Counted from the stretch's first letter, positions 13,746-32,429 are shown. The stretch is DNA of 64,000 nucleotides from Candidatus Magasanikbacteria bacterium RIFOXYC2_FULL_42_28 (GCA_001784435.1 MFQZ01000008.1:23347-87346), one strand, 5' to 3'. Translations and numbers: made by a program. Notes: generated by a model not told the origin, from the letters alone.

Positions 13746-13818
13746 GACCCTGTAGTTCAATGGATAGAACAATAGCCTTCTAAGCTGTGGATCTTGGTTC
13801 GATTCCAAGCGGGGTCAC
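13746..13818 (+). tRNA. tRNA-Arg (anticodon TCT)
   Basis: cloverleaf: acceptor GACCCTG/CGGGGTC, anticodon loop CTTCTAA, T-loop TTCGATT. Confidence 0.8.
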
Positions 13819-13990: not shown

Positions 13991-14063
13991 GGTGCCTATA
14001 GTGTAATGGTTAGCACGAGAGATTGTGGATCTCTCAGAATGGGTTCAAATCCCATTAGGCACC
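13991..14063 (+). tRNA. tRNA-His (anticodon GTG) with the extra 5' G(-1)
   Basis: G-1 pairs with C73; acceptor GTGCCTA/TAGGCAC; anticodon loop TTGTGGA; T-loop TTCAAAT. Confidence 0.8.
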
Positions 14064-15734
14064 CCAAACGGTATCTAATATAACCGAGTTCGGTTGATTG
14101 GATATCATTGCAGGAATCTCGGCAATTTGTCGGGATTTTTGCGTTTTAGGGGCAATCTTGGATTTTGATTTGCCAGCTATGAATGGTGTGAATTCTACGG
14201 CCAAGTCGGTTATTATTCTCGGACCGGTAATTTCTTTGTATTTCTTGGTAAAAACCATATCCTCAGCTTGCATCAGTCCTCTTATGATCGGTGATGGTAT
14301 TACGGTTTGGATTTTTTTGTCGGCTACCTCAAATCTTTCCCAGTAAAGCCCAAGGAATAATCGTTTCATTTCGTCCGGAGATTTAGTATAGGCTTCGTAA
14401 GCGTTGCGGACAAACAAGAGCATATCTTGCAGTTCATCGATCCTCATATTGAGTTTTTTATCTTGGACGTACAGTTCGTCTTGCAACAGCCCAAGCTGTT
14501 CTTTAATTTTCACTTTTATTCTGGTGAAGTCGTCATCGGTAATAAGTCCGGCAAATAGTTTTTCCTCGGCGGTGTCCCGTTTCTTTTCAAACATCATCTT
14601 TTGAGTATTCAAGCCTCGTTTGTCTTTATTGATCACTTCTTTGCGACCGCTGTAAATCTTTTCAATCTTGGTCACCAGTCTGTCGGTAAAATTGGGAGTA
14701 AATTCTATATACTTGAACAAGTTAGCAACTTGCTGTTCTATATCCCAGACTTCCACATATTTGTCTTGGCATTTAATCTGATCGCCAGACCGGTTGCAGT
14801 GATAATATGATTTATTTTTCTTAGGATGATGTTCGGCGGTGTATCTTTGTCCGCAGTTGGCACAAAAGGTTAGACCTCGCAGAATGAAATTGAATTTTTG
14901 CCGTCGGCAGGCATATCTATTGTGTTCGGCCATAACCAACTGGACTCGTTCCCACAAATCTTTATCTATAAGTGGTTTATGTTTTCCGGTGTTAACTAAT
15001 CCTCGCCACCTCATCTCACCATAATAAAAAGGATTTTTTAGTATCTCGATCATCTTACTGTGAGCCAATCGTTTATCGGCGTGTGTTCTAAAACCTTTTT
15101 TGTATAAAGCATCGCGAACTTCAAAGACTGAATAATCGCCAGTCACATACATTTTGAATGCTTCTTGAATAAGCGGTGCCCGTTCCTCATCTACAATAAT
15201 AATTCTTTTTTTCTCATCGTCCGGCTCGCCAGCATTTAAATAGCCGACAGCCACACCGGTCGGCCACCAACCCTCCCAGAATTTTAGCTCAAGACTTTTC
15301 AAAGTTTTTCTCGAAGTGATTTGGGATTGGAGTTGGTTCACACCGGCAATAACCAAGTCCATAAAGTTTCCCTCGGGGCTATCGGTAATGCCAGGTTGGG
15401 AGACAGAGAACAGTTCAACATCATGCTTTTTCATGATCGCTTTGATCTGCATGTGATCAAGAGCGTTTCTGGCTAGTCGGTCAGTGTCTTGAATAAAAAC
15501 CGCCCTGATTGTTTTGTCGTCTTGGATTTTAAGTAACATGTCTTGTAGACCGGGACGATTCATATTAGTGGCTGATCGTCCGGGGTCTTCAAAAACACCG
15601 TCATCTATCAGTTTGAATTTGTTACTTTCCTCGATCGCTCGTTTGCAGAGCTTGAGCTGAGTCGCAAGCGAGTGGTGGCCGTCCTCGGCCTGTTCCTCGG
15701 TTGAGACTCGGCAGTAAATTAATGCATGTTCCAT
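14055..15734 (-). CDS. large serine recombinase (integrase) of an integrated element; its 3' end overlaps the 3' end of tRNA-His
   Basis: N-terminal resolvase catalytic domain (ALIYCRVSTEEQ ... DRLARN), recombinase domain and Zn-ribbon-like C-terminus (CxxC...C) typical of large serine recombinases. Confidence 0.85.
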   Translation of the reverse strand: MEHALIYCRVSTEEQAEDGHHSLATQLKLCKRAIEESNKFKLIDDGVFEDPGRSATNMNRPGLQDMLLKIQDDKTIRAVFIQDTDRLARNALDHMQIKAIMKKHDVELFSVSQPGITDSPEGNFMDLVIAGVNQLQSQITSRKTLKSLELKFWEGWWPTGVAVGYLNAGEPDDEKKRIIIVDEERAPLIQEAFKMYVTGDYSVFEVRDALYKKGFRTHADKRLAHSKMIEILKNPFYYGEMRWRGLVNTGKHKPLIDKDLWERVQLVMAEHNRYACRRQKFNFILRGLTFCANCGQRYTAEHHPKKNKSYYHCNRSGDQIKCQDKYVEVWDIEQQVANLFKYIEFTPNFTDRLVTKIEKIYSGRKEVINKDKRGLNTQKMMFEKKRDTAEEKLFAGLITDDDFTRIKVKIKEQLGLLQDELYVQDKKLNMRIDELQDMLLFVRNAYEAYTKSPDEMKRLFLGLYWERFEVADKKIQTVIPSPIIRGLMQAEDMVFTKKYKEITGPRIITDLAVEFTPFIAGKSKSKIAPKTQKSRQIAEIPAMISNQPNSVILDTVWGA

Positions 15735-15818
15735 ATTATTTTCATTTTAATTTTGGCTAATAATTTTAGGCTTAGCTTTCAAACACAACATACGCTATTT
15801 TTGGCAACAAGCTAAGCG

Positions 15819-16253
15819 TTAGTTGCCCACAGGCTTTTTATTCTTGTATTTCTCTAAAATTTCCTCTATTTGACGACTACCTCTTTTGTATTCTTCGTCA
15901 TTACAATCATCATCTCTGCCTCCAGCCGGACCTCGGACAAAATCAAGAATGGTTTTGGCCGCTCGGAATTTCATGGCATCGCTTTTGGCGCCCATAAGAC
16001 TAACTAACATTTTGGATGCGGTCTCGGCGTGTTTCATTAGGACGGTATCGGTCTCTTTATCACGAACTTTATTTCTTTCTTTTTCGTATCGTTCGTACTC
16101 ATCCTTAAGTAAACCGTCTGACCGAAACCATCTCTTTACAGTAACGTGAGAGACTTTTAGCAGTTGGGCAATCTCTGAATAAGTAAAATCGCCGTATTTT
16201 AAGCGGATTGCATTCTGGTATTTTTCATTTTTTATGTCTACATTTTTTGCCAT
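15819..16253 (-). CDS. small HTH-domain protein (island cargo)
   Basis: YSEIAQLLKVSHVTVKRWF helix-turn-helix. Confidence 0.4.
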   Translation of the reverse strand: MAKNVDIKNEKYQNAIRLKYGDFTYSEIAQLLKVSHVTVKRWFRSDGLLKDEYERYEKERNKVRDKETDTVLMKHAETASKMLVSLMGAKSDAMKFRAAKTILDFVRGPAGGRDDDCNDEEYKRGSRQIEEILEKYKNKKPVGN

Positions 16254-16274
16254 TTGGGTATCATTTAGTATCTT

Positions 16275-17048
16275 TTAAAGGGTTAATAATTTATTGAAAT
16301 ATGCACCTCTATGCCGGATTTTGTCGCTTGGTTGATCCATTACAGACCGGTAGGCTTCCTCAATTCTTGCTAGTCCGTATTTCTTGAGAGATGATAAAAT
16401 AAAAGTCATATCTTTTTCTCCCAGCTCTTTGGCGATCTCCCAACATTTCTGTTCCTCATAAGACTTGGGAGTGAATTCTCTTACGGGTCGACCACGATTC
16501 GATCGGTTGTTTTTATTTTCTTTTTCGTTGTCGTTCTTGGAACTTCTGCCAAGCGAGCTTTCCGAACCGAAAGAAAACCTATCTACTAAAGCGTTTTTGT
16601 CACTTTCCAACTTCTGCCGAACGTCACTGACTTCTGTCGGTGCTTCTGCTGGTAATTGTGTATCAGTACCACCCTCACTTCTGCCATACTTCTGTTTGCT
16701 ACGGGTTTCAAGGTCTACAAAACCGCCATTTGATAAGGGGTAACGGGAGATATCAACATGGAACGAACTTCTGCGACCTTGCTGTATGGCAAACCATACC
16801 CACTTCTTACGCTTCAGGTTCAGCATCAGCCGATTGATGTGATTCTTGGAATACTTTTCTTTGAAGTCCTTGGAAAGTCCTGCGTAGCTGACATGAGCTT
16901 TTCCCATTCGTGGGTTGGCAGTGATCCATAACCAGACGAGGACCGAGTATTCCTCAAAACTCAAATAGCCGTCCACAAGGGCGGTCTTGATGCTTCGGGG
17001 AAGCTTTACGTAATCATTGTTATCTATTTCGAATGGCAAATTTTCCAT
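16275..17048 (-). CDS. hypothetical protein (island cargo; possible wHTH/replication-associated)
   Basis: ORF only; low-complexity basic middle region. Confidence 0.3.
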   Translation of the reverse strand: MENLPFEIDNNDYVKLPRSIKTALVDGYLSFEEYSVLVWLWITANPRMGKAHVSYAGLSKDFKEKYSKNHINRLMLNLKRKKWVWFAIQQGRRSSFHVDISRYPLSNGGFVDLETRSKQKYGRSEGGTDTQLPAEAPTEVSDVRQKLESDKNALVDRFSFGSESSLGRSSKNDNEKENKNNRSNRGRPVREFTPKSYEEQKCWEIAKELGEKDMTFILSSLKKYGLARIEEAYRSVMDQPSDKIRHRGAYFNKLLTL

Positions 17049-17067
17049 ATTTCATATTCAATTATTT

Positions 17068-17331
17068 TCAACTGATAGCGTCGTTATACATCAGTGATTT
17101 CAGCTCTTTGATCGCCAAGACAAATTCCTTGGCGTTCACGTCGGTATAACCTAAAAAATAACCCTCCACGAATTGGGGTCGTCCTGGTTGGTCAACAAAG
17201 ACAAAACGAAACCGGCGAGCATCGGTTTTATTTATACCAACAAGTTGGTATTTGTAGGCGAGCAAAAAAGCGGCCACATAGAAGTCGCTGGTAATAAAAT
17301 TATTGTCGGGTGTTTGGTTTTTCATATTCAT
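17068..17331 (-). CDS. DUF5659-like small protein, a type common in phage and mobile elements
   Basis: FYVAAFLLAYKYQLVGINKTDARRFRFVFVDQPG...FVLAIKELKSLMYN pattern recalled for DUF5659; not verified. Confidence 0.4.
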   Translation of the reverse strand: MNMKNQTPDNNFITSDFYVAAFLLAYKYQLVGINKTDARRFRFVFVDQPGRPQFVEGYFLGYTDVNAKEFVLAIKELKSLMYNDAIS

Positions 17332-17565
17332 TTTGATTATTAGATTGTTTTTCTTTCTCTTTTTGCTCGTAGCGATAATCCAAAAGTCGGACAATCAGAT
17401 CGGCTAATCTGTCCATGAAAATTTCCTCCATTTGAGCTGGGGTGAGGGGTGGTATTTTCTTTGTGATTATTGGCTTCGGCATATTGTTTGCCGGCCCGCA
17501 AATAAAAAAGCAGACCGTTTTCTTTCAGTCTGCTCTTTGCTGTCCGAATCAGGTCGGACTCCACC

Positions 17566-18162
17566 TTATCCAGCTTTGTAATCAATAAATATGCGCCTAA
17601 CTTTCCATTTCAAAAGCTTGTCTATCTCCAGCTTATGCTTCACTTTTTTATTTATCGCTCGCATAGCGTCATAGACACTGTCTTTGCTGTCTTTTGCCCA
17701 GTCCATTAAATCTAAAAAGTCTATTTCTTTGACCAGTGTGCCAAACGGGACTGCGAAAATAGTTTTGCATAGGAAGTATTGGTTGGTGTTAATCGGAATA
17801 GGGCAGGTTTTTCCTCCCATGTTTATTATTCCGGTTTTCTCATCAAACCTGATCTTAGTATCCACCGGCTTTTCCAGTTTTGGTTCAGGCTTGTCTTTCA
17901 GTTTGAAATAATAATCATTGAGCATGGACCGGCTCGGCTTAGAAACTACAAAGTCGCCGTCATCCAGTTTAAAGCTGGCAATAATCTTTTTCTTTTTCAG
18001 CTCGGTCATGACCGCCTTCTGTTCGGAAACATCCAGATCAGATATCGGGGAATTAAAATACACTTTTGCTGGTATTTTATGTGTGACGTCCGTGTAGGAT
18101 TCCACGCTCCCCAGCAGGGCATAAATAAAAACTAACTTTGCATTTTCATTTTTCATATTCAT
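17566..18162 (-). CDS. hypothetical protein (island cargo)
   Basis: ORF only. Confidence 0.3.
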   Translation of the reverse strand: MNMKNENAKLVFIYALLGSVESYTDVTHKIPAKVYFNSPISDLDVSEQKAVMTELKKKKIIASFKLDDGDFVVSKPSRSMLNDYYFKLKDKPEPKLEKPVDTKIRFDEKTGIINMGGKTCPIPINTNQYFLCKTIFAVPFGTLVKEIDFLDLMDWAKDSKDSVYDAMRAINKKVKHKLEIDKLLKWKVRRIFIDYKAG

Positions 18163-18512
18163 ATTCGTTAACGCCTCAACGAAAAGAGCTCGTGATCAAT
18201 TACCACAAAAAGTGATAACAATCACGAGCCCTTGAGCACGGAATACCATTCAGGTCGCCCCTTGAGGCGAAATTATTAAATTGTTGATTTTATTATAGCA
18301 CTGCTCAAAATTTCTCGGAAGTGTGTAAGGTGTTCGTTTTTCCGATATGAGACACTTTTGTCATATTGCTGAAACGGGGAGGATTGCTTGCTTTTATGGT
18401 CAAACTCGGTATATAATCTAGTGAATAGGAAGCAATATATGGTCTCCATTCACTAAATATTGACTTTTAAGTCGAAATCGCTTATACTAACCTTATAATT
18501 TTAACAAAACAT

Positions 18513-19415
18513 ATGGCTATAACAAAACCTATAAAAGACAGGCTTACAGCTCTAAAAAGCGAATATGACACCCTCCGCAAAGGCAAGGAGTCTCTTTTGG
18601 TGATGATTGACGAGGCCGAAGTGCCAGAAAGCGTCTATAACTCCAACGCTATTGAAAACTCCACCCTTACCCTCAAGGAAACTGAGAAGATCCTTTTGGA
18701 TATGGAGGTCTCCCGTGATGTTTCGTTGCGTGAAGTTTATGAGGCCAAAAACTTGGCTCGAGTTATCGGCTACATTCGCAACAAGAGTAAAGAAACGGAA
18801 ACTAACAAAGAGACAATCTTACTTTTGCATCAAATGCTTATCGGTGGCATCGACGACAAAATTGCCGGTCGTTTTAGAAAGCTCGGAGAATACGTCCGTG
18901 TTGGGACCCACGTTGCCCCAGCACCGGAACATGTTGAGAAAATGATTGAGGCAATCATCACTGAATACACCGGCGACCTCTCAAATTATTTCTTAGACAA
19001 GATCGCTAAATTCCATTTGGATTTTGAAACCGTTCACCCTTTCAACGATGGCAACGGCCGTATTGGTCGCGTGCTCATTTGTTTTCAGCTTCAGCGTCTT
19101 GGCTTTCCGATAATCATCATTCGTGATCGTGAAAAGAAAGAATACTATAAGTCATTTGCCGAATACCGTGATGAAAAAAACGCCAAAAATATGGAAAAGG
19201 TTATCGCCTTGGCTTTGATGGAATCATTGAGTAAGAGGATTACTTATCTCAAAGGTCAAAAGGTTATCACTTTGTCCGAGTATACAAAATTAAACAAACT
19301 ATCTGCCCCGGGCATGATTAACGCCGCTCGCCGTCAAAATATTCCGGCTTTCCGAGAGAAAGGTGTTTGGAAAATCGGCGAGGATTTTATTTATAACTCT
19401 CGCAAAGAAAAATAA
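18513..19415 (+). CDS. Fic-family protein (AMPylator/Doc-like)
   Basis: canonical Fic motif HPFNDGNGRIGR; TTGACT-18-TATACT promoter at 18460-18489. Confidence 0.8.
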   Translation: MAITKPIKDRLTALKSEYDTLRKGKESLLVMIDEAEVPESVYNSNAIENSTLTLKETEKILLDMEVSRDVSLREVYEAKNLARVIGYIRNKSKETETNKETILLLHQMLIGGIDDKIAGRFRKLGEYVRVGTHVAPAPEHVEKMIEAIITEYTGDLSNYFLDKIAKFHLDFETVHPFNDGNGRIGRVLICFQLQRLGFPIIIIRDREKKEYYKSFAEYRDEKNAKNMEKVIALALMESLSKRITYLKGQKVITLSEYTKLNKLSAPGMINAARRQNIPAFREKGVWKIGEDFIYNSRKEK

Positions 19416-19420
19416 AATAT

Positions 19421-21850: not shown

Positions 21851-21851
21851 T

Positions 21852-22604: not shown

Positions 22605-22605
22605 T

Positions 22606-23802
22606 ATGACAACAACTACACAAAAAATTCCATCAGGATATAAACAAACCGAGATCGGTGTGATTCCGGCCGATTGGGATGTCAAAAATTTAGGTAATGT
22701 TTGTGAAAAAATAACCACCGGAAAACTTAACGCCAATGCAATGGTTGAAGGTGGTGAGTATCGTTTTTATACGTGTGCCAAAGATTATTATCGAATAAAT
22801 CGTTATGCTTTTGATACTGAGGCACTGTTAGTTTCTGGTAATGGTGCAAATGTTGGATATGTACATTACTACAAAGGGAAATTTAATGCTTACCAAAGAA
22901 CGTATGTGCTATCTGATTTTTCAGCAGACATCCAATATATAAAATTATTTTTGGATAGAAATTTACAGGAAAGAATAAGAGTAGAAGTTAATGCAGGCAA
23001 TACCCCATATATCACAATGGGTACACTTACGGAAATGCAACTTGCAGTTCCTCCATTCAAAACTGAACAAACTGCAATTGCGACCACCATCTCCGATATA
23101 GGTATGTTGGTTGAAAAGTTTGAAAAATTAATTGGAAAGAAAAAGAATATCAAACAGGGTGTAATGCAGGAACTTCTTACTAAGAAGCGACGCCTTTCGG
23201 GATTTTCTAGTAAGTGGGAAACGAAAACCTTGGGTGATTTAGTTGATGTAAAAGACGGTACGCACCAAACACCAAGATATGTTGATGAGGGCGTACCTTT
23301 TTATAGTGTTGAAAGCGTTACCAGCAATGATTTTGAAAATACTAAATATATTAGTGAAACCGAACATAGACTATTAACCAAAAATTTCCGAATAGAAAAG
23401 GGTGATATTTTAATGACAAGAATCGGGTCTATTGGAGATTGCAAATTGATTACATGGGAACCGAATGCCAGTTTTTATGTGAGCTTGGCTTTGCTAAAAC
23501 CCAAAGATAAAAAGACCTCTCTTTATATCTACCATTTTTCTAAGACAGATTTCTTTAAAAAAGAATTAGAGGATAGATCCTTGCAATGGGCTGTGCCTAA
23601 AAAAATTAATCTCGGCGAGATTTCCAAAGTAAAAATTTATCTCCCAGTTGATCCTGAAGAACAAACCGCTATCGCCACTGTCTTGTCAGATATGGACACA
23701 GAAATTGAAAAACTGGAATCGCAACTTACCAAATACCAAAATATTAAACAAGGAATGATGCAAACACTTTTAACAGGCAAAATAAGATTACTTACAAAAT
23801 AA
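22606..23802 (+). CDS. hsdS: type I RM specificity subunit with two target-recognition domains
   Basis: central and C-terminal conserved repeats (QGVMQELLTKKRRL / QGMMQTLLTGKIRL). Confidence 0.85.
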   Translation: MTTTTQKIPSGYKQTEIGVIPADWDVKNLGNVCEKITTGKLNANAMVEGGEYRFYTCAKDYYRINRYAFDTEALLVSGNGANVGYVHYYKGKFNAYQRTYVLSDFSADIQYIKLFLDRNLQERIRVEVNAGNTPYITMGTLTEMQLAVPPFKTEQTAIATTISDIGMLVEKFEKLIGKKKNIKQGVMQELLTKKRRLSGFSSKWETKTLGDLVDVKDGTHQTPRYVDEGVPFYSVESVTSNDFENTKYISETEHRLLTKNFRIEKGDILMTRIGSIGDCKLITWEPNASFYVSLALLKPKDKKTSLYIYHFSKTDFFKKELEDRSLQWAVPKKINLGEISKVKIYLPVDPEEQTAIATVLSDMDTEIEKLESQLTKYQNIKQGMMQTLLTGKIRLLTK

Positions 23803-23806
23803 CAAT

Positions 23807-26800
23807 ATGGAAACACTAAACACAACTAAAGTCGGCCAGCTGGAACGCAAAACGCAAGATCGTATTGTGGCTTTGTTTCGTGATCGGCTTGGCTATGATT
23901 ATCTCGGCAACTTTGAAGAGCGAGAGGAAAACAACAATGTTGAAGAGGTCTATTTGCGCTCTTTTCTTTTGCGTTCCGGACACAGCGAAACTTTGATCAG
24001 CAAAGCCATTGAGAAGTTAAAGAAATGCACCAATCGTCCGCAGATGAGCTTGTATGATCTGAATAAAGAAACTTACAGCTTGCTTCGCTACAGTGCCAAA
24101 GAACGAGAGAAATTGGGAGAGCACAAGCAGGATGTTGAATTCATTGACTGGGAACATCCGGAGAATAATCATTTTGCGATTGCCGAGGAAGTGACGATCA
24201 AAGGCAACCGTACCAAACGGCCGGATATCGTGCTGTATGTAAACGGCATTGCTGTCGGTGTGATTGAACTCAAGCGAAGCATTGTTTCCGTGTCCGAAGG
24301 CATTCGCCAAAACATTGGCAATCAAAAAGAAGAATTTATCAAAACATTTTTCGGTACGATTCAGTTAGTTATGGCTGGTAATGACACTGAAGGTTTGCGT
24401 TATGGCACGACCGAAACTCCCGAACAACATTATTTGTCTTGGAAAGAGACAGGTCTCGGCAGTGAGTCCAGATTGGACCGAGCTATTTTGCAGATTTGCG
24501 ATAAGAAGCGTTTATTGGAAATTATCCACGACTTTATTGTTTTTGATAGCGGTATAAAAAAGACTTGCCGACATAATCAGTATTTTGGCGTTAAGGCCGC
24601 TCAGGATTATGTCAATCGTCACGAGGGTGGAATTGTTTGGCATACGCAAGGTAGTGGCAAGAGTTTGACGATGGTCTGGCTGGCTAAATGGATTCGCGAG
24701 AATATCAACGATGCTCGGGTGCTTTTACTTACCGACCGCACCGAACTTGATCAGCAAATCAAACAGGTTTTTGACGGCGTGAACGAAGAAATATATCGAG
24801 CACCAAGTGCCAGAGATTTATTGGACGAATTAAACAAAAAAGATAAGTGGTTGCTTTGTTCGCTCGTGCATAAATTTGGCCGAGTAAACGGGACCGGCGA
24901 GCTTGATGTTGATGACTATCTTTCAGAGATAAAGAAAAACTTGCCGAAGGACTTTTCTGCCAAAGGCAATTTGTTTGTGTTTGTGGATGAATGTCATCGC
25001 TCTCATACCGGCAAACTGCACGAAGCGATGAAGGAACTTTTGCCAACGGCAACATTCCTTGGCTTTACCGGCACTCCGCTTCTCAAGGTTGATAAATCAA
25101 ACAGCATCGGGGCGTTTGGACCGTATATCCATACTTATAAATATAACGAGGCCGTGGCCGACAAGGTGGTTTTGGATTTACGTTATGAAGCTCGCCGAGT
25201 TGATCAAAGTATCAGCTCCCAAGATAAGATCGACGAATGGTTTGAAGAACGCACCCAAGGGCTTACTGATGTCGCCAAAGCAGAACTCAAGCGACGTTGG
25301 GGTACGATGCAAAGTTTGCTCTCATCTCGATCACGACTGGAGAAAGTGGTTTTTGATATCTTAGATGACTTCTACAAAAAGGATCGCTTAGCCAGTGGTC
25401 GTGGCAATGCCATGCTCGTGGCCAGCAGTATCTATGAAGCTTGTCAGTATTATGAAATTTTCCAGACGATGGGCTTTACCAAGTGTGCCGTGGTGACTTC
25501 TTACGAACCCGGTGCTTTGTCTACCGATACTCGCGAATATGCGGTTTATCAGAAAATGTTAAACGGCAAGAGCACGGAAGATTTTGAGAAAGAAATCAAA
25601 AAGAAATTCATTGAAACTCCGGGTCAAATGCAACTGCTGATTGTGGTGGACAAACTTTTGACTGGTTTTGACGCACCGCCAGCTACTTATCTCTACATTG
25701 ATAAGAATATGCAGGATCACGGCTTGTTCCAAGCGATTTGTCGTGTGAACCGATTGGATGGCGAAGATAAAGAGTACGGCTATATTGTGGACTATCGGGA
25801 CCTATTCAAAAAACTAGAGAAAGCTGTCGGCGATTATACTGCCGGTGCTCTTGAGGGTTTTGATAAGGAAGACGTGCTCGGGCTTTTGAAGGATCGCATG
25901 GATGAAGGCAAAAAGGATTTGGATGAGGCAATGGAAATTGTGAAGGCACTTTGCGAGCCAGTCTCTCCGCCGAAAGATTCAGCCATGTATATCCGCTACT
26001 TCTGCGGTGATGTTGAAAACCCTTACTCCCTCAAAGAAAATGAAATCAAGCGAGTAAAACTTTATAAATCTGTCAGTCATTTGCTTCGAGCTTATGCCGA
26101 CTTGGCCAACGATATGGCTGATGCTGGTTATACCAAAGATCAGGCACAAGCGATTGAGCGAGAAGTTAGACACTACGAACAAGTACGAATGGAAGTTAAA
26201 CTTGCCAGCGGTGATTACATTGATCTGAAGAAATACGAACCGGCAATGCGAGTTTTGATTGACCGTTATATTTCGGCTACCGAAAGCGAGAAGTTGTCGG
26301 CTTTTGACGATATGACTTTGGTGGACTTAATTGTGAAGAAAGGTGAAGACGCTTTGAATGACTTGCCAGACGCTATTAAGCAAAGTCAGGAAGCGGTTGC
26401 CGAAACAATTGAGAACAACGTCCGCAAGCTGATCATTGATGAGATGCCGACTAACCCGAAGTATTATTTGCGAATGTCCGAACTCTTGGATGAGCTGGTC
26501 AAGAAACGCAAACAGGCTGACGTTGAGTATAAGGAATATTTAAAGCAGATTGTGGCTTTGTCCAAGAAAGTTAAAAACCCAATGGACGAGTCTGTTGGTG
26601 CGGAAATAAATACCTCTACTAAGCGAGCGATTTATGACAATCTTGGTCAGGATGTAAATAAGGCCGTGGCGGTGCATGAAGCCGTGATCGCTTCGAGGCA
26701 AGCCGACTGGCGTGGCAATCGTTTGAAAGAACGAGCAATCAAGATTGAAATCAAAAACGCTTTGCCCGAAATCACAGACGAGGAATTGAAAAACCTTTTT

Positions 26801-26830
26801 GAGATTATCAAGAATCAAAATGAGTACTAA
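23807..26830 (+). CDS. hsdR: type I restriction enzyme R subunit (SF2 helicase plus nuclease)
   Basis: Walker A QGSGKS, DECH box (FVDECHRSH), 1007 aa. Confidence 0.9.
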   Translation: METLNTTKVGQLERKTQDRIVALFRDRLGYDYLGNFEEREENNNVEEVYLRSFLLRSGHSETLISKAIEKLKKCTNRPQMSLYDLNKETYSLLRYSAKEREKLGEHKQDVEFIDWEHPENNHFAIAEEVTIKGNRTKRPDIVLYVNGIAVGVIELKRSIVSVSEGIRQNIGNQKEEFIKTFFGTIQLVMAGNDTEGLRYGTTETPEQHYLSWKETGLGSESRLDRAILQICDKKRLLEIIHDFIVFDSGIKKTCRHNQYFGVKAAQDYVNRHEGGIVWHTQGSGKSLTMVWLAKWIRENINDARVLLLTDRTELDQQIKQVFDGVNEEIYRAPSARDLLDELNKKDKWLLCSLVHKFGRVNGTGELDVDDYLSEIKKNLPKDFSAKGNLFVFVDECHRSHTGKLHEAMKELLPTATFLGFTGTPLLKVDKSNSIGAFGPYIHTYKYNEAVADKVVLDLRYEARRVDQSISSQDKIDEWFEERTQGLTDVAKAELKRRWGTMQSLLSSRSRLEKVVFDILDDFYKKDRLASGRGNAMLVASSIYEACQYYEIFQTMGFTKCAVVTSYEPGALSTDTREYAVYQKMLNGKSTEDFEKEIKKKFIETPGQMQLLIVVDKLLTGFDAPPATYLYIDKNMQDHGLFQAICRVNRLDGEDKEYGYIVDYRDLFKKLEKAVGDYTAGALEGFDKEDVLGLLKDRMDEGKKDLDEAMEIVKALCEPVSPPKDSAMYIRYFCGDVENPYSLKENEIKRVKLYKSVSHLLRAYADLANDMADAGYTKDQAQAIEREVRHYEQVRMEVKLASGDYIDLKKYEPAMRVLIDRYISATESEKLSAFDDMTLVDLIVKKGEDALNDLPDAIKQSQEAVAETIENNVRKLIIDEMPTNPKYYLRMSELLDELVKKRKQADVEYKEYLKQIVALSKKVKNPMDESVGAEINTSTKRAIYDNLGQDVNKAVAVHEAVIASRQADWRGNRLKERAIKIEIKNALPEITDEELKNLFEIIKNQNEY

Positions 26831-27545
26831 TTCTTATCTACAACTTGGCAGTGTTGAAGCATTGGTCGTCCGCAAGCCGATCAAGAATTTGCATCTTTCG
26901 GTTTTGCCTCCCAACGGTTGGGTGCGTGTCACTGCACCAGCAAATATGAAAGACGACGCTATCCGTACGCTCTTGGCTTTGAGATTGCCATGGATCAAGA
27001 AACAGCAAGCCAAATTTACTGGCCAAGAAAGGCAAACCAAGCGTGATTATTCCTCCGGTGAAAGCCATTACTTTTTTGGTAAACGCTATCGCCTTGAAGT
27101 GGTTTATAAAGACGAGGCACCTGTTGTTACCTTGAAAGGAAAAAATAAGATTATTTTACAGGTTCGACCGAAAAGTCCGGCGATCAAACGCCGAGAAGTG
27201 ATGATGGATTGGTATCGCAAGGAGTTGCACACGGTCGTTGATGAATTGATTGCCAAGTGGCAAAAGAAAATGGGCGTAGAGGTTAAATTTTGGGGTATTA
27301 AGCAGATGAAGACTCGTTGGGGTACCTGCAATCACAAGCGAGCTCGAGTCTTGATAAACCTAGAGCTAGCCAAAAAGCCGATCGCTTGCGTGGAGTATGT
27401 CGTAGTCCACGAGCTTTTGCATTTGATTGAGAAAAAACACAGCGACAAATTTGTCGCCCTAATGGCAAAATACATTCCGAAATGGAAAGGCATAAAAGAG
27501 GAACTGAACAGTTTTATTTTGTCGTACGAGGAGTGGAAGTATTAG
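26820..27545 (+). CDS. YgjP/DUF45-type (M48-like) zinc metallopeptidase, a type commonly linked to hsdR
   Basis: HExxH motif (VVVHELLHLIE); start overlaps the hsdR stop. Confidence 0.6.
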   Translation: MSTNSYLQLGSVEALVVRKPIKNLHLSVLPPNGWVRVTAPANMKDDAIRTLLALRLPWIKKQQAKFTGQERQTKRDYSSGESHYFFGKRYRLEVVYKDEAPVVTLKGKNKIILQVRPKSPAIKRREVMMDWYRKELHTVVDELIAKWQKKMGVEVKFWGIKQMKTRWGTCNHKRARVLINLELAKKPIACVEYVVVHELLHLIEKKHSDKFVALMAKYIPKWKGIKEELNSFILSYEEWKY

Positions 27546-27616
27546 TCTTGACTAGTAAAAATAGGCTGTAATTTGCTATCGAAAAATTTTCGATAAACTG
27601 ATATAATTATTGTAGT

Positions 27617-28687
27617 ATGAAATCACAATCCTCAAAAATTAAAGTCGTTGATTTATTTTGTGGCATTGGTGGACTGACTCACGGTCTTATCAAGGAGGGT
27701 TTAGATGTGGTGGCAGGAATTGATAACGATTCAAGTTGTAAATTTGGTTATGAATACAACAACAAGGCTCAATTTATTGATAGCGACATTCTTAAGGTAA
27801 CACCTGATCAAATAAATAAATTATTTGGTACAAAAAAGGGCACAATACGTGTTCTTGCTGGTTGTGCCCCTTGCCAGCCATTTTCAAGATTGAATCTAAA
27901 AAAAGTCACCGAAAAACAACTTGAGCCACTGGGTAAATTTGCTCAACTTATTGCGACTGTTCAGCCAGACATTGTCTCAATGGAAAATGTTAGTGGTTTA
28001 GCTGACACAAATAAATACCCCGTCTTTGCTAAATTTATAAAGACTCTGGAGGATAACGGATATAAATATAAATATGAAGTGGTAGATGTCTCAGAATTTG
28101 GCGTACCTCAAAAACGAAAACGATTAGTTTTATTGGCCTCAAAGTTTGGTGAAATTGAATTGATAAAAAGAACTCACAAAGACAAGCGAGTTACTGTTCG
28201 TGATGTTATAAAACACCTTGAACCAATCAAAGATGGTCAAACAAGTAAAAAAGACCCTCTTCATAAGGCAAGAAAACTTGATCCAATAAATCTTGATCGA
28301 ATCAAGGCGACTCCACATAATGGCGGGAATTCAGAAAGTTGGAGTGAAGATTTAATGCTTGATTGCCACAAAAAAGCTTCAGGAAAGACTTATCGAAGTA
28401 CCGTTTATGGCCGAATGAGATGGGACGAACCAGCACCGACTATGACAACTCAATGCATAGGTTTAGGGAATGGTCGTTTTGGTCACCCAACACAAAATCG
28501 TGCTATAAGTTTAAGGGAGGCCGCAATATTTCAAACATTCCCTGAAAATTATAAATTTACCGAGTCCGAAGACTCTATGGTGGTTACTAAAGTGGCAAAG
28601 TTTATTGGAAACGCAGTACCAGTAAGGCTGGGATCAGTCATTGGCAAGAGTATCAAGAATCACCTCAAATATTATGAAAAACAATAA
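27617..28687 (+). CDS. DNA (cytosine-5) methyltransferase
   Basis: motif I DLFCGIGG, motif IV GCAPCQPFS, motif VI ENV (SMENV). Confidence 0.85.
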   Translation: MKSQSSKIKVVDLFCGIGGLTHGLIKEGLDVVAGIDNDSSCKFGYEYNNKAQFIDSDILKVTPDQINKLFGTKKGTIRVLAGCAPCQPFSRLNLKKVTEKQLEPLGKFAQLIATVQPDIVSMENVSGLADTNKYPVFAKFIKTLEDNGYKYKYEVVDVSEFGVPQKRKRLVLLASKFGEIELIKRTHKDKRVTVRDVIKHLEPIKDGQTSKKDPLHKARKLDPINLDRIKATPHNGGNSESWSEDLMLDCHKKASGKTYRSTVYGRMRWDEPAPTMTTQCIGLGNGRFGHPTQNRAISLREAAIFQTFPENYKFTESEDSMVVTKVAKFIGNAVPVRLGSVIGKSIKNHLKYYEKQ

Positions 28688-30347
28688 TGATAATTTCTCT
28701 TTTGAGATTTCACTGAGCGTTTTGAATCACTTAGGAAGAAATCTGTACAGAAGTTTTGCTACAGTTCTCGGAGAAGCAATCTCTAATGCATGGGATGCTG
28801 ACGCAAAAAATGTCTCAATCTATATCAACAAGAAAGGCAACAGCTTTTTTATCAAAGATGACGGAGTTGGTATGACAAGTGATGATTTTCAAAATAAGTT
28901 TTTGAAAATTGGATACTCAAAGAGAAAAGATGGCGGTTCTGCTTCTCCCAAGGGCAGACCTTATATAGGCAGGAAAGGTATCGGTAAATTAGCTTTGCTG
29001 TCTTGTGCGGACAAAATAACCGTTATATCAAAAACTAAATCCAGCAAGTACATTGGTGGTGTCATTGATAACTCCGGTTTAGACAAAGCAATAACAGAAG
29101 ATCTTACTCCCAAGGAGTATTCTCTTGGATCATGGACAGAAAGCACTTTTGCCACCCATACAAAAGATCATAAACATGGCACAATAATTTATTTTGAAGG
29201 TATCAAGGACGGTATACAAAACAGCTTAGAGTTTTTGAAAAAGATTGTTGCTTTGTATTTTCGTTTTTCACTTTTAGATAAAACATTCAATATCTTTATT
29301 GATGGCGAAAAAATCACACATGAATCCCTTAATGATCTTGCTGAAAAAACAGAGTTTTTATGGAAAATAAATGAACACAAGGATCCTTACGTTCAAAGTC
29401 TTGAAAAGAGATTTACTCCAGAAAAAAACGAGCAAAGAGACATCGTCCTTAAAGGTACTAAAGTGAAGGGGTTTATTGCGTCAGTTGAACGACCAAGAGA
29501 TCTTAAAATAATGACGACAGAGGAAAGAATCGGAATCGACCTTTTTGTAAATGGAAGATTGCGAGAAAGAGATATCCTCAAACATATACCAACATCTCGA
29601 GTGGCCGAGAATTATTTGTATGGACAGATTCACTTCAATGAGCTTGATAGTGGCGATGATATATTTACTAGTAGCCGAGAGGGTGTGGTTGCTGATGATC
29701 CAAAATATAAAAAGTTTCTAGATACTCTGCGAAAAAGTGTGATATTAAAAATTGTTGAGGATTGGGACAAATGGAGAATAGCCCACAGGAAGGATGGCGA
29801 TTCAGAAAACGAGAGAATGACCCCTCGAGATAGAAAATCAATGGAGTTATTTAATACCGTTTCCAAAGAATATACAGTTACAGGAAAATCAAAACATAAA
29901 AAGAAAATTGACACATGGGTTAATGATCTTGCTGATGACGCTCAATACAATTTTGGCTCTTATGCGGAATGTTTTGTATCAGAAAATTTAATCAGAAATT
30001 ATATTGGCGAAAAGAAAATAACCTTGTCAAAGGAAGCAAAAACAGAAATTGCGAAATGGAAAAAAGTAGAAACGGAGTCTAAAAATAAAGGCAATGTTAG
30101 TATTGGTATCCGCAAAAATAATAGTGATTTGAGCTATCTATCTATGAATGATCTCGCATACCTTGTAGATAAAGCAAAAGATCCAACTAAAGAGGCTTGT
30201 CTTGCGAGAGATGCAAACGAGTATAAGCCAATTCGAGACTCGCTTGCTCACACAGCACTTCTAACTGATGCGGCGAAAAAGAAGTTAACCTCGGTTTATG
30301 AAAATATCAAAGGCAGACTCATTACATTACTGTCTGGGAAGGCCTAA
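28674..30347 (+). CDS. GHKL-superfamily (HATPase_c, MORC/MutL-like) ATPase with a large C-terminal domain of unknown function; 14-nt overlap with the upstream m5C methyltransferase gene
   Basis: N-box EAISNAWDA, G1 box DDGVGM, G2-like GRKGIGKLAL. Confidence 0.6.
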   Translation: MKNNNDNFSFEISLSVLNHLGRNLYRSFATVLGEAISNAWDADAKNVSIYINKKGNSFFIKDDGVGMTSDDFQNKFLKIGYSKRKDGGSASPKGRPYIGRKGIGKLALLSCADKITVISKTKSSKYIGGVIDNSGLDKAITEDLTPKEYSLGSWTESTFATHTKDHKHGTIIYFEGIKDGIQNSLEFLKKIVALYFRFSLLDKTFNIFIDGEKITHESLNDLAEKTEFLWKINEHKDPYVQSLEKRFTPEKNEQRDIVLKGTKVKGFIASVERPRDLKIMTTEERIGIDLFVNGRLRERDILKHIPTSRVAENYLYGQIHFNELDSGDDIFTSSREGVVADDPKYKKFLDTLRKSVILKIVEDWDKWRIAHRKDGDSENERMTPRDRKSMELFNTVSKEYTVTGKSKHKKKIDTWVNDLADDAQYNFGSYAECFVSENLIRNYIGEKKITLSKEAKTEIAKWKKVETESKNKGNVSIGIRKNNSDLSYLSMNDLAYLVDKAKDPTKEACLARDANEYKPIRDSLAHTALLTDAAKKKLTSVYENIKGRLITLLSGKA

Positions 30348-30366
30348 CTAAAGTAAATATGGGTTA

Positions 30367-30546
30367 TGGCCAACGATAACGATCCAATCAAAGACGACCC
30401 AGATGAAGAAGCTCCGGACGAGGAAGTCGCTGAGCTTATGGAAACCCACGATCTTGATAAAGACACGGCCGAGCGTGTGCAGGAGATCATGGAAGATTTG
30501 GGTGTGGACGAAGATGACGCCGTTGAGATCGAGGAGAGTCTTTAGT
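30367..30546 (+). CDS. 59-aa highly acidic small protein (MANDNDPIKDDPDEEAPDEE...)
   Basis: ORF below the 60-aa track cutoff, found by reading the sequence; ATG at 30367, TAG at 30544. Confidence 0.3.
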
Positions 30547-31114
30547 TAAGCAATTATGACTCGGTGCAATTTGCTTAACTTTTCCGAAGTTAAGCAAATA
30601 GTTCTAGGCTCGCAAATTTCGTCAAACCGGTGGGCTATGGTCGCAAGATGTGTCAAAGGTCTATCCGGGGTGCAAAGCTCGCCATAAGGGCAGACAAGGG
30701 GCAACAACGTTTTACTTTTTGGCTAACAGGAGATCGTAGTTGTAAAACTTGGCAACTTTCTTGATGTTATTCATTTTTTCGCGTAAAGTAACCATATACT
30801 CTTTATCCTCGAGCACTGTTATAAGACCCGACAGTGCCTGACCCCGAATTTTTTCTTATGTTGCCAAATGTTGCCAAAAACCGCTATGTTAACGCCTTAT
30901 TTTGGTTGATGTTTTTTTCGGCGGCCGTCCATATGGCGGTCTTATTTTTTCTGACGATAATCAACAATAATTGGCAAATTATAAATTATTTTAATATCTT
31001 GGATTTTGATTTAATCGCGCCTAATTTTCCTGGACTAAATAACTTAACTTTAGCCACATTTACCGGTTTAATAATTTATCTTTTAATATTTTTCTTCGGC
31101 ACAAAAAAAAATAA

Positions 31115-32423: not shown

Positions 32424-32429
32424 AAATTA

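What the first reader, a model, noticed from the sequence alone, without database searches (positions are those of the whole stretch)
14055..30600. Integrated defense island at tRNA-His carrying a large serine recombinase
The 3' end of the recombinase gene overlaps the 3' end of tRNA-His(GTG). This is the classic geometry of an integrative element inserted in a tRNA gene.

The following roughly 16.5 kb is lower in GC than the flanking pnp/rpsO and pilin regions. Its cargo reads: an HTH protein, a DUF5659-like protein and two hypotheticals, then Fic, type I RM (hsdM, HEPN-like ORF, hsdS, hsdR), a YgjP-like peptidase, an m5C methyltransferase, a GHKL ATPase and a tiny acidic ORF. That mix is typical of a defense-loaded mobile element.

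The island appears to end near the AGTTAAGCAA hairpin cluster at 30550-30615, before a host GT2 gene.
Basis: partly seen in the sequence, partly recalled or inferred. Interest (0 to 1): 0.65.

Follow-up and report, generated by a model that had tools for sequence, protein, structure and literature searches.

The report
Serine-integrase defence island in tRNA-His
A 16.8-kb mobile element carrying anti-phage genes sits at the end of a histidine tRNA gene in a tiny groundwater (CPR) bacterium; it was inserted by a serine integrase, a type rarely seen at tRNA genes, and the insertion cuts off the end of that integrase's own gene.

Summary
The finding is real and its interpretation holds, with corrections. 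The window comes from a Candidatus Magasanikbacteria (CPR) genome. A large serine recombinase (LSR) gene (14055-15734, minus) ends 12 nt inside tRNA-His (13992-14066).

In 28 of 32 related genomes, tRNA-His is followed within 0.1-3.3 kb by the glycosyltransferase/pilin genes. In the window these lie about 17 kb away. None of those genomes has an island gene there.

An intact attP junction in a related element fixes both ends. A 5-bp core, ACCCC (tRNA positions 71-75), occurs at 14061-14065 (attL) and 30841-30845 (attR).

The LSR reading frame crosses attP. Integration replaces its last 42 codons, which now lie at 30712-30840 (minus), with one alanine and a stop in the antisense tRNA.

Relatives in other CPR lineages share the LSR and a four-gene module but carry different defence cargo. 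One distant relative sits in tRNA-Asn.

GC differs only slightly (40.9 vs 43.1%), but tetranucleotide usage is distinct.

The closest precedent is the Dehalococcoides ssrA islands. I rate this a new variant of a known kind.

The parts
13992..14066 (+). tRNA-His(GTG). It is the host target, its 3' part forms the B arm of attL, and the gene stays intact.
   Evidence: ARAGORN; Rfam tRNA 65.7 bits; a promoter-like site at 13904-13932 lies upstream.
14061..14065 (+). attL core ACCCC, which is tRNA-His positions A71-C75. The crossover lies somewhere within these 5 bp.
   Evidence: Comparison of attL, attR and attP. The same sequence TGGGGT is present at every attL read (window, L067, L068, L069, L072).
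14055..15734 (-). Large serine recombinase, integrated (truncated) form of 559 aa. Residues 1-558 are element-encoded. The final alanine and the stop codon are read from the antisense tRNA.
   Evidence: Pfam Resolvase, Recombinase and Zn_ribbon_recom; PHROG integrase 1.5e-79; 559/559 aa identical to the L069 copy despite 93 synonymous differences.
15819..16253 (-). 144-aa HTH protein of the conserved core module. It resembles a small terminase subunit. Candidate roles are directionality factor, regulator or packaging protein.
   Evidence: Sigma70_r4_2/HTH_23; phrog_2538 'terminase small subunit' at 1.4e-10 over the full length, matched by 26 of 26 family members. The model has low confidence and Foldseek gave no significant hit.
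16275..17048 (-). 257-aa core-module protein of unknown function.
   Evidence: No Pfam, PHROG or NCBIfam hit. The family comprises 402 clusters at 50% identity; 10 sampled members had no Pfam domain. The AF2 model has pLDDT 55. The gene is conserved next to the LSR in L067, L068, L069 and L072.
17068..17325 (-). DUF5659 protein (85 aa as called on public contigs) of the core module.
   Evidence: PF18903 at 3.2e-8. It occupies the same position in L067, L068, L069 and L072.
17566..18162 (-). 196/198-aa core-module protein of unknown function. It is the most variable core gene.
   Evidence: No family hit. It is 66% identical between window and L069, whereas its neighbours are 96-100% identical.
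18163..18512 (.). Divergent intergenic region between the core module (minus strand) and the cargo (plus strand).
   Evidence: Promoter-like sites at 18460-18499 (+) and 18525-18498 (-). These are consensus matches only.
18513..19415 (+). Fic-domain protein (300 aa), candidate defence gene.
   Evidence: PF02661 at 3.4e-19; PADLOC PDC-S04 1.3e-35 and SoFic 6.9e-27; motif HPFNDGNGRIGR.
19421..26830 (+). Type I restriction-modification operon: hsdM (19421-21850), Hypoth_Ymh protein (21852-22604), hsdS (22606-23802) and hsdR (23807-26830).
   Evidence: Pfam; PADLOC MTase_I, Specificity_I and REase_I at E = 0 to 1e-79; TIGR02391 at 4.4e-25.
26820..27545 (+). YgjP-like metallopeptidase-fold protein.
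   Evidence: PF01863 at 6.2e-60.
27617..30347 (+). Probable type II restriction-modification pair: m5C methyltransferase (27617-28687) and a GHKL-domain restriction-enzyme-like protein (28674-30347).
   Evidence: PF00145 at 4.1e-58 and HATPase_c_3; PADLOC MTase_II and REase_II; NCBIfam BbrUII/HgiDII family 2.6e-92, N-terminal part only and below the curated cut-off.
30366..30545 (+). 59-aa acidic ORF, the last cargo gene, of unknown function.
   Evidence: Called as a gene on public contigs. No family hit.
30569..30711 (-). Conserved right-end non-coding stretch. In the attP form it is the 3' untranslated region of the LSR gene. It ends in a 13-bp-stem hairpin (30569-30599).
   Evidence: 87% identical to the attP-form copy in L070/L071. 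Folding is not significant beyond the hairpin (z = -0.9 and -1.2). No Rfam family.
30712..30843 (-). Severed 3' end of the LSR gene: the shared Gly codon, 42 codons (QALSGLITVLEDKEYMVTLREKMNNIKKVAKFYNYDLLLAKK) and the stop codon.
   Evidence: Translation. It matches the tail of P0123 and of L070. Against L070 there are 12 synonymous and 3 non-synonymous codon changes and the frame is intact.
30841..30845 (+). attR core ACCCC. Host sequence resumes at 30846 (GAATTTTTT...).
   Evidence: Homology to attP stops exactly at this point.

Best explanation
Window 14061-30845 is an integrated 16,780-bp mobile element in a Candidatus Magasanikbacteria chromosome. It has no capsid, tail, large-terminase, relaxase or secretion genes.

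A large serine recombinase (LSR) recombined the element's attP with an attB made of the 3' end of tRNA-His, through a 5-bp core ACCCC (tRNA positions 71-75). This leaves the tRNA intact (shown by sequence comparison).

The element has three parts:
1. A conserved minus-strand module next to attL: the LSR, a small-terminase-like HTH protein, a 257-aa unknown, DUF5659 and a 198-aa unknown.
2. A variable plus-strand cargo. Here it is a Fic protein, a type I restriction-modification (RM) operon with Ymh and YgjP-like accessory genes, and an m5C type II RM pair.
3. A conserved 277-bp right end.

attP lies inside the LSR reading frame. The excised circle would therefore encode a 600-aa enzyme, while the integrated copy encodes 559 aa: the last 42 residues are replaced by one alanine (shown).

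Inferred, not shown: the full-length and truncated enzymes differ in activity or stability. Integration state would then feed back on recombination. For example, only the circle would make an integration-competent enzyme, and excision would need a partner protein from the core module.

The cargo gives the host restriction-type and Fic-type phage defence (inferred from family membership). How the element moves between cells is unknown.
For: Insertion:
- Synteny in 32 relatives, 28 with GT2/pilin genes 87-3306 bp after tRNA-His, and no island gene in any.
- Distinct tetranucleotide usage across the island.

Ends:
- attP DNA in L070/L071 reads ...GATACCGTTTGGGGTCAGGCACTGTC...
- The window's attL (reverse complement) reads GATACCGTTTGGGGTGCCTAATGGGA.
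- The window's attR (reverse complement) reads AAAAAATTCGGGGTCAGGCACTGTCGG.
- Homology to attP runs from 30845 to 30569.

Split gene:
- The Gly codon falls in the same phase in both cores.
- The tail is read at 30712-30843.
- P0123 carries the joined form.
- The tail motif is conserved in relatives down to 44% identity.

Family:
- L067, L068, L069 and L072 all have the LSR 3' end inside tRNA-His and share the core module. They carry different cargo: SNF2/Bro-N/N6_N4 methyltransferase/ResIII; AbiEii/DpnI/HEPN_AbiV; AbiE/RM/SIR2/DUF87.
- P0089 sits in tRNA-Asn with ThsB_TIR and AlwI RM cargo.
- 111 of 157 relatives end in an antisense-tRNA-like tail or stop just after the junction glycine.

Mobility and function:
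- The cluster of LSRs at 90% identity or more carries source names from Falkowbacteria, Buchananbacteria and Parcubacteria, and a neighbouring cluster (86% to the window) from Giovannonibacteria; the window itself is Magasanikbacteria.
- The same element (92% nt identity) sits in a different tRNA-His in L069.
- dN/dS is 0.002 for the LSR and 0.009 for Fic.
- The severed tail still shows mostly synonymous change.
Against: - No empty attB and no circular junction was found for this species. All five public contigs that carry the flanking genes also carry the island.
- The attP sequence comes from a related element (87-91% nt identity), and there it lies inside what looks like a tandem array rather than a free circle.
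- The exact crossover dinucleotide inside ACCCC is not determined.
- Arm symmetry of attP and attB is not statistically significant.
- Any functional consequence of the truncation is untested.
- No directionality factor, replication function or transfer function was identified. Structure predictions for two core proteins had low confidence.
Confidence: 0.88

Rival explanations
1. The element is a phage satellite. It excises when a helper phage infects and uses its small-terminase-like HTH protein to be packaged into helper capsids. Its defence cargo would play the same role as the cargo in PICI and P4-type satellites.
For: - HTH144 matches PHROG small-terminase families (phrog_2538 at 1.4e-10 over its full length, in 26 of 26 family members; also phrog_3218 and phrog_7344).
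- Its best hit in isolated phages is an annotated small terminase at the genome start of Enterococcus phage IME197 (E = 2e-3).
- The predicted N-terminal HTH followed by long helices fits the general small-terminase layout.
- The element is small, has an integrase and has no structural genes.
- Near-identical copies occur in several CPR lineages.
Against: - The HTH part alone could explain the profile hits. Excisionase and generic DNA-binding families also match.
- Model confidence is low and Foldseek found no significant match.
- There was no match in IMG/VR viral contigs to the LSR or to the attP arm.
- No helper phage, pac/cos site, primase or capsid-remodelling gene was identified.
Confidence: 0.15
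2. The island is a fixed, no longer mobile remnant. It entered by LSR integration, but the truncated recombinase can no longer excise it, and it is now inherited vertically as a host defence locus.
For: - Every public contig of this species holds the island.
- No attB or circle was found.
- The integrated LSR lacks 42 conserved C-terminal residues.
- SSV1-type proviruses with split integrase genes are thought to depend on episomal copies for excision (from memory).
Against: - The LSR has 0 amino-acid changes against 93 synonymous ones when compared with a copy in another host's tRNA-His.
- The detached tail keeps an open frame with 12 synonymous against 3 non-synonymous codon changes. Selection can act on the tail only when it is rejoined to the gene.
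- Nearly identical elements occur across several CPR lineages.
Confidence: 0.12
3. The block is a prophage or a conjugative element.
For: - The LSR matches a phage integrase PHROG.
- T4SS_pilin genes flank the region.
Against: - No capsid, portal, tail, large terminase, relaxase, coupling protein or secretion ATPase was found among the ORFs scanned with Pfam (all main island ORFs) and PHROGs (ten of them).
- The pilin genes are host genes. They are present at the same place in 28 relatives that lack the island.
- 16.8 kb is too small for either kind of element.
Confidence: 0.02
4. The block is ancestral and was lost in all compared relatives, so the recombinase/tRNA overlap is a coincidence.
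For: - ORFs can run antisense into tRNA-His by chance, as in L050.
- GC content is close to that of the flanks.
Against: - attL, attR and attP fit exactly.
- The same recombinase sits at tRNA-His in unrelated host contexts with other cargo.
- Tetranucleotide usage differs from the flanks.
- This reading would need loss in 32 of 32 relatives.
Confidence: 0.01

Closest known systems
Dehalococcoides ssrA-specific genomic islands with the serine recombinase DsiB (McMurdie et al. 2011, PMC3146451)
   Same: - A CcrB-like large serine recombinase sits at the island edge next to a stable-RNA gene.
[quoted passage not shown] The authors already wondered whether it is fully functional only on the circle.
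- There is a conserved reverse-strand integration module next to attL, variable cargo and tandem arrays.
- The islands have no transfer genes and were classed as integrative mobilisable elements.
   Different: - The target there is the tmRNA gene, cut in the T-loop, with a 20-bp direct repeat. Here it is tRNA-His (or tRNA-Asn in a relative) at positions 71-75 with a 5-bp core.
- The Dehalococcoides module has a second small serine recombinase (DsiA), ParB and a Mom homologue. None of these is found here.
- Cargo there is reductive dehalogenases. Here it is anti-phage defence.
- The host here is CPR.
- Here the joined full-length gene is actually observed and its tail is conserved.
- Sequence relatedness between DsiB and this LSR was not tested.
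Classical tRNA-gene genomic islands and prophages (Islander type; PMC4383910, PMC7192596)
   Same: Integration at the 3' part of a tRNA gene, the integrase gene at the island edge next to the tRNA, the tRNA kept functional, and foreign cargo.
   Different: - Those use tyrosine integrases and leave a displaced tRNA fragment as a direct repeat. For tRNA genes the repeat block is typically under 100 bp (PMC7192596).
- Here a serine recombinase leaves only 5 shared bases.
- In the TIGER survey only 14 of 297 serine-integrase elements lay in t(m)RNA genes. The authors called this unreported and needing proof (PMC7192596).
Integration-dependent immunity of mycobacteriophages (attP inside the repressor gene; PMC8092301)
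   Same: attP lies inside a coding sequence. Integration at a tRNA 3' end gives a C-terminally truncated product with a stop codon supplied at attL, and the tRNA is transcribed towards the truncated gene. The truncation changes protein behaviour and so reports integration state.
   Different: There the split gene is the repressor and the enzyme is a tyrosine integrase. The lost tail is a degradation tag. Here the split gene is the serine recombinase itself, and the role of the tail is unknown.
SSV1-type archaeal integrases, whose gene is partitioned by integration into a tRNA gene (from memory; the review PMC8371274 was listed in a literature search but its text was not retrieved: the one look-up returned an error)
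   Same: attP lies within the integrase gene, so the integrated copy is split in two at a tRNA gene.
   Different: That is a tyrosine recombinase of archaeal viruses and plasmids, and the split removes a large part of the enzyme. Here only the last 42 of 600 residues of a bacterial serine recombinase are removed.
Defence-carrying phage satellites (PICI, P4-like, PICMI; from memory)
   Same: A small integrated element with an integrase, a possible small-terminase-like protein and a variable defence cargo slot.
   Different: No helper phage, induction, packaging signal or replication module has been shown here. The resemblance rests on one profile match.

Membership tests
Large serine recombinase (serine integrase) | N-terminal resolvase catalytic domain with the active-site serine | tested here: met
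   PF00239 at 4.3e-25 over residues 4-151. The motif IYCRVSTEEQ is present. The domain aligns to the TP901-1 integrase catalytic domain 3bvp (1.1e-8).
Large serine recombinase (serine integrase) | Recombinase domain plus zinc-ribbon domain C-terminal to the catalytic domain | tested here: met
   PF07508 at 5.1e-17 (residues 183-270) and PF13408 at 7.1e-10 (residues 284-338). The cysteines of CANCG...HCN...IKC are visible in the translation.
Large serine recombinase (serine integrase) | Short att sites that share only a few central bases, with no long direct repeats at the element ends | tested here: met
   A 5-bp core ACCCC is shared by attL, attR and attP. No longer repeat was found.
Large serine recombinase (serine integrase) | Catalyses attP x attB recombination, with reversal needing a directionality factor | not testable with these tools
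   This needs a recombination assay. No directionality factor could be named by homology.
Classical tRNA-targeting island (tyrosine integrase type) | Tyrosine integrase (Phage_integrase domain) in the element | tested here: not met
   No island ORF has PF00589. The only recombinase is of the serine type.
Classical tRNA-targeting island (tyrosine integrase type) | Displaced fragment of the tRNA gene as a direct repeat at the far end | tested here: not met
   Only 5 bases are repeated (8 with one mismatch: ACCCCAAA vs ACCCCGAA).
Dehalococcoides ssrA-GI type element | Serine recombinase gene reading across attL into the target RNA gene | tested here: met
   The LSR stop lies 12 nt inside tRNA-His. 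The same holds in L067, L068, L069, L072 and L075. The description of the family comes from PMC3146451.
Dehalococcoides ssrA-GI type element | Target is the tmRNA gene, with a 20-bp direct repeat | tested here: not met
   The target is tRNA-His and the core is 5 bp.
Dehalococcoides ssrA-GI type element | Second small serine recombinase (DsiA) and ParB in the integration module | tested here: not met
   The core-module proteins have no Resolvase or ParB hit.
Prophage | Capsid, portal, tail and large-terminase genes | tested here: not met
   None was found among the island ORFs scanned with Pfam (all main ORFs) and PHROGs (ten of them).
Integrative conjugative or mobilisable element | Relaxase/oriT, with or without a type IV secretion system | tested here: not met
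   There is no relaxase or secretion-system hit in island ORFs. The flanking T4SS_pilin genes are host genes, present in relatives that lack the island. oriT cannot be tested.
Phage satellite (PICI/PICMI/P4-like) | Own small terminase or other packaging-redirection gene | tested here: inconclusive
   HTH144 matches three PHROG TerS families (best 1.4e-10; phrog_2538 in 26 of 26 members). It also matches HTH and excisionase families. Structure comparison was not significant.
Phage satellite (PICI/PICMI/P4-like) | Helper-phage-dependent excision and packaging | not testable with these tools
   No CPR helper phage or virion data were available. There was no match in IMG/VR.
Type I restriction-modification system | hsdM, hsdS and hsdR together in one operon | tested here: met
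   Pfam and PADLOC full-length matches (MTase_I E = 0, Specificity_I 1e-78, REase_I E = 0).
Type II restriction-modification system (BbrUII/HgiDII type) | m5C methyltransferase next to a BbrUII/HgiDII-family endonuclease | tested here: inconclusive
   The methyltransferase is clear (4.1e-58). The endonuclease matches only profile positions 1-369 of 659 and scores 310 bits against a curated cut-off of 550. PADLOC REase_II gives 1.4e-44.
Fic-type defence (SoFic / PDC-S04) | Fic domain with the HxFx(D/E)GNGRxxR motif | tested here: met
   HPFNDGNGRIGR is present. PDC-S04 gives 1.3e-35 and SoFic 6.9e-27. A defence role itself was not tested.

The most novel reading that the evidence does not exclude
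[quoted passage not shown] In this family the integrase gene is built across its own attP. Only the excised circle encodes the full 600-aa enzyme. The integrated copy makes a version lacking a conserved 42-residue tail.

This would be a built-in sensor of integration state. It could set the direction or level of recombination, in the way split repressor genes do in integration-dependent immunity.

The elements would serve as the main exchangeable defence cassettes of these reduced genomes, and might travel as phage satellites.
Probability: 0.35. Interest if true: 0.72.

Novelty: new variant of a known kind. Interest (0 to 1): 0.6.

Why it matters
- CPR/Patescibacteria have tiny genomes, few CRISPR systems (as stated in the abstract of PMC6509639, seen) and almost no described mobile elements. 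In this window and in four related loci, restriction, abortive-infection-type and Fic-type genes are the variable cargo of one element family. Near-identical recombinases of that family are named from several CPR lineages.\n- The family gives a clear, sequence-resolved case of serine integrases using tRNA genes as targets. A 2020 survey regarded that as unreported and unproven.\n- It shows directly that the integrase reading frame spans attP. The joined and the split forms are both seen. That turns an old speculation about the Dehalococcoides ssrA islands into a testable hypothesis.\n- The core ACCCC covers the tRNA-His identity elements (C73 plus CC), which are near-invariant. This may explain the broad host range.\n- The defined attP/attB pair could be tried as an orthogonal integration tool.

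Tried and rejected
1. A search for a displaced tRNA fragment or other direct or inverted repeats at the island ends found only chance-level matches.\n2. Local alignment of attL arms against the right end looked suggestive by eye. The motif GTTATA...AGA..CCG scored 13, against background scores of 22-24 elsewhere in the window, so arm symmetry is not claimed.\n3. Look-ups of flank proteins, to find an empty site in the same species, returned only island-bearing contigs or short fragments. The Logan contig that ends at 30817 is therefore uninformative. A hypothetical empty-site ORF could not be looked up.\n4. An exact-pattern scan of JGI metagenomes with the tRNA-His 3' end hit two unrelated CPR contigs only.\n5. 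IMG/VR scans with the LSR and with the attP arm found nothing.\n6. Rfam found no RNA family in the island, and folding of the conserved right end was not significant beyond one hairpin.\n7. AlphaFold models of hyp257 (pLDDT 55) and HTH144 (pLDDT 61) gave no significant Foldseek hit in PDB. PDB sequence searches matched only the LSR catalytic domain.\n8. A profile search of 1.8 billion proteins enlarged the hyp257 family to 402 clusters, but 10 sampled members had no Pfam domain.\n9. GC content as an island marker was rejected as too weak.\n10. The idea that the T4SS_pilin genes belong to the island was rejected by synteny.

Full report
**What is in the window**

ARAGORN finds tRNA-Arg (13746-13818) and tRNA-His(GTG) (13992-14066) on the plus strand, and Rfam confirms both. 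A 559-aa ORF on the minus strand (14055-15734) carries the three Pfam domains of a large serine recombinase (LSR): Resolvase, Recombinase and Zn_ribbon_recom. Its stop codon lies 12 nt inside the 3' end of tRNA-His.

- Minus strand: an HTH protein (144 aa), a 257-aa unknown, DUF5659 and a 198-aa unknown.
- Plus strand: Fic (with a canonical HPFNDGNGRIGR motif), hsdM, a Hypoth_Ymh protein, hsdS, hsdR, a YgjP-like protein, an m5C methyltransferase, a GHKL-domain protein and a 59-aa acidic ORF.

The GHKL protein is more than an ATPase. Its first 369 residues match the BbrUII/HgiDII restriction-enzyme family (2.6e-92, below the full-length cut-off) and PADLOC type II endonuclease models. It is therefore probably the nuclease partner of the methyltransferase.

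**Host and proof of insertion**

The PNPase next to the tRNAs retrieves 57 loci from species-representative genomes. Most are titled Magasanikbacteria or Patescibacteria; many others are titled 'uncultured Gammaproteobacteria'. The closest (L050) is 90% identical.

In 32 of these loci tRNA-His lies near pnp (30 in the window's orientation), and most also keep rpsO, a pilin-like gene and tRNA-Arg in between. In 28 of them the next recognisable genes after tRNA-His are the glycosyltransferase or the T4SS_pilin array, 87-3306 bp away. In the window the same genes start about 17 kb away. No island gene has a homologue next to tRNA-His in any of these loci.

GC content is a weak marker: 40.9% against 43.1%. 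Tetranucleotide usage, by contrast, is clearly different across the whole block (Mann-Whitney p = 1.7e-5). The only comparable outlier in the window is the 23S rRNA gene.

**The ends**

There is no displaced tRNA fragment. That is expected for a serine recombinase.

The boundaries came from the recombinase's relatives. All close homologues (83-100% identity) with an intact C-terminal reading frame share the sequence ...ILDTVWG and then diverge. Most continue with one to about 35 residues that are the antisense translation of different tRNA T-arms, such as AYRDLNPS or GQRDLNPQPLEPQSS.

One homologue (P0123, from a Buchananbacteria contig) continues instead with QALSNLITVLEDKPYMVTLREKMNNIKKVAKFYNYDILLAKK. 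That sequence is encoded, with three substitutions, on the minus strand at the far end of the window's island (30712-30840).

At the DNA level the junctions are as follows.
- The Buchananbacteria copy reads GATACCGTTT-GGGGT-CAGGCACTGTC.
- The window's attL (reverse complement) reads GATACCGTTT-GGGGT-GCCTAATGGGA.
- The window's attR (reverse complement) reads AAAAAATTC-GGGGT-CAGGCACTGTCGG.
- Homology between the window's right end and that junction starts exactly at the core. It then runs for 277 bp, through the recombinase tail and a non-coding stretch, to a 13-bp-stem hairpin (30569-30599).

The core ACCCC is therefore at 14061-14065 and 30841-30845, and the element is 16,780 bp long. The inferred empty site is ...TCCCATTAGGC-ACCCC-GAATTTTTTCTT. 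The core corresponds to tRNA-His positions A71-C75, which include C73 and the first two bases of CCA. The tRNA is not altered.

The 94-aa ORF called at 30834 starts in the junction. Its real start, if it is a gene at all, is more likely the ATG at 30858.

**The recombinase gene spans attP**

The glycine codon GGT occupies the same phase in both copies of the core. Rejoining the ends would therefore give a continuous 600-aa frame. The integrated gene encodes residues 1-558 plus one alanine, with the stop supplied by the antisense tRNA.

The lost tail is a real part of the protein. Relatives down to 44% identity that do not end in tRNA antisense carry the same motif (I-I-T-L-L-x-D-x-x-Y-[LM]-x-x-L-[KR]-E-[KR]-L-x-x-I-[KR]). 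The detached copy in the window keeps its frame, with 12 synonymous against 3 non-synonymous codon changes relative to the joined copy.

The body of the gene is under very strong constraint. Against the copy in L069 it shows 93 synonymous differences and no amino-acid change (dN/dS 0.002). Fic gives dN/dS 0.009.

Whether the two protein forms behave differently is not known. I propose that they do, so that integration state feeds back on recombination. This step is inference.

**A family, not a single case**

- L067 (Hainich groundwater), L068 (a JGI metagenome) and L072 (Buchananbacteria) each have an 85-87% identical LSR ending inside tRNA-His. Each also has the same four-gene module beside it. 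Their opposite-strand cargo differs:
  - L067: SNF2 helicase, Bro-N, N6_N4 methyltransferase and ResIII.
  - L068: AbiEii, DpnI and HEPN_AbiV.
  - L072: AbiE, restriction-modification genes, SIR2_2 and DUF87.
- L069 carries the window's element (92% nt identity, same Fic and hsdM) in a tRNA-His that differs at roughly a dozen positions, which points to another host.
- The LSR cluster at 90% identity or more has 140 members. Source names in it include Falkowbacteria, Buchananbacteria and the Parcubacteria group, and a neighbouring cluster (86% to the window) includes Giovannonibacteria.
- A 49% identical relative overlaps tRNA-Asn and carries ThsB_TIR and an AlwI-type restriction system.
- Of 157 relatives examined, 111 end in an antisense-tRNA-like tail or stop right after the junction glycine.
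- The Buchananbacteria contig that supplied attP looks like a tandem array: tRNA-His, LSR-A, core, cargo, an attP junction, then the 3' part of a second, interrupted LSR.

**What stays unknown**

The core module could not be assigned.
- HTH144 consistently matches PHROG small-terminase families (26 of 26 members, best 1.4e-10). It also weakly matches an annotated small terminase of an Enterococcus phage. However, it matches HTH and excisionase families too, and its model is of low confidence.
- hyp257 belongs to a family of about 400 clusters, and none of 10 sampled members has a Pfam domain.
- No relaxase, replication gene, capsid or large-terminase gene is present.

The transfer route is therefore open. 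A satellite lifestyle is possible but weakly supported. No empty site or circle was found for this species.

**Comparison with what is known**

- The nearest precedent is the ssrA-specific islands of Dehalococcoides (PMC3146451). [quoted passage not shown] It is accompanied by a conserved reverse-strand module, variable cargo and tandem arrays. The authors speculated that DsiB is fully functional only on the circle. The present element differs in several ways:
  - Target: a tRNA at positions 71-75, not the tmRNA T-loop.
  - Core length: 5 bp against 20 bp.
  - Module content: no DsiA or ParB.
  - Cargo and host lineage.
  - Here both the joined and the split gene are observed.
- A survey of integrative elements found serine integrases in t(m)RNA genes in only 14 of 297 cases, and called such use unreported and in need of proof (PMC7192596).
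- Integration-dependent immunity of mycobacteriophages (PMC8092301) is the closest functional analogue of a gene truncated at attL next to a tRNA. SSV1-type split integrases (from memory) are another analogue. Both involve tyrosine integrases.

**Verdict**

The real right end is 30845. The GC argument is weak, and the 'classic' label does not fit a serine recombinase.

The element is a new variant of a known kind: a CPR-wide, tRNA-targeting, serine-integrase defence element whose integrase gene is split by integration.

Interest is 0.6. A specialist would find the tRNA specificity, the split integrase and the spread across CPR lineages notable. The general phenomenon of a defence island at a tRNA gene is ordinary.

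Noticed in passing
window 53531-57088 (minus strand): A second low-GC patch (33-40%). It holds another Fic protein (351 aa), an AbiEii toxin (237 aa) and an upstream 191-aa ORF that could be its antitoxin. No recombinase was seen nearby.
   Followed up: partly
L050 5051-6385 (+) and tRNA-His 6315-6389 (-): In the closest related species a 444-aa glycosyltransferase-like ORF reads antisense through the whole tRNA-His. An ORF overlapping a tRNA is therefore not evidence of integration on its own.
   Followed up: partly
L070 1-1224 and L072 (one 45.5-kb Buchananbacteria contig): A tandem arrangement of two elements at one tRNA-His, with an internal attP junction. The second recombinase copy breaks off at about codon 250. 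At that point a stretch of about 50 bp (...ATATCCACCTAATACAGTTGTCCAGTACCTGGGGACATTATA) occurs twice, just before the contig end. This may be the end of an insertion element.
   Followed up: partly
window 17566-18162 compared with L069 1791-2372: The 198-aa core protein is only 66% identical between two elements whose neighbouring genes are 96-100% identical. DNA identity drops to about 70% at 17750-18250. This may be a specificity or immunity determinant.
   Followed up: no
proteins P0006, P0052, P0061, P0074, P0075: Five recombinase relatives (50-87% identical) share a third kind of C-terminal tail...G(A/D)VVEDVRTVFE(R/K)xNDA(T/S)IYIP. It is neither antisense tRNA T-arm nor the attP-form tail. 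It could reflect a conserved alternative target or an alternative element end.
   Followed up: no
window 14058-15734 compared with L069 4203-5879: 559 of 559 amino acids are identical despite 93 synonymous nucleotide differences (dS 0.33). This is an unusually strict constraint for a mobile-element recombinase.
   Followed up: yes
L075 10001-11644: A 49% identical recombinase overlaps the 3' end of tRNA-Asn by 40 nt. A different small module and ThsB_TIR, 8xMP, HTH and AlwI-type restriction cargo lie beside it.
   Followed up: partly
window 12860-13720 and 31923-36529: At least nine tandem T4SS_pilin-like (PF18895) paralogues flank the insertion site. The array is conserved at this position in 28 related genomes, so it is host-encoded and typical of these CPR bacteria.
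   Followed up: partly
L072 11752-12198: A LAGLIDADG_3 homing-endonuclease-like ORF lies between tRNA-His and two tRNA-Arg genes in the Buchananbacteria host.
   Followed up: no
window 3725-6891 (minus strand): 23S and 5S rRNA genes. They explain the high-GC composition outlier at 4-6 kb.
   Followed up: yes
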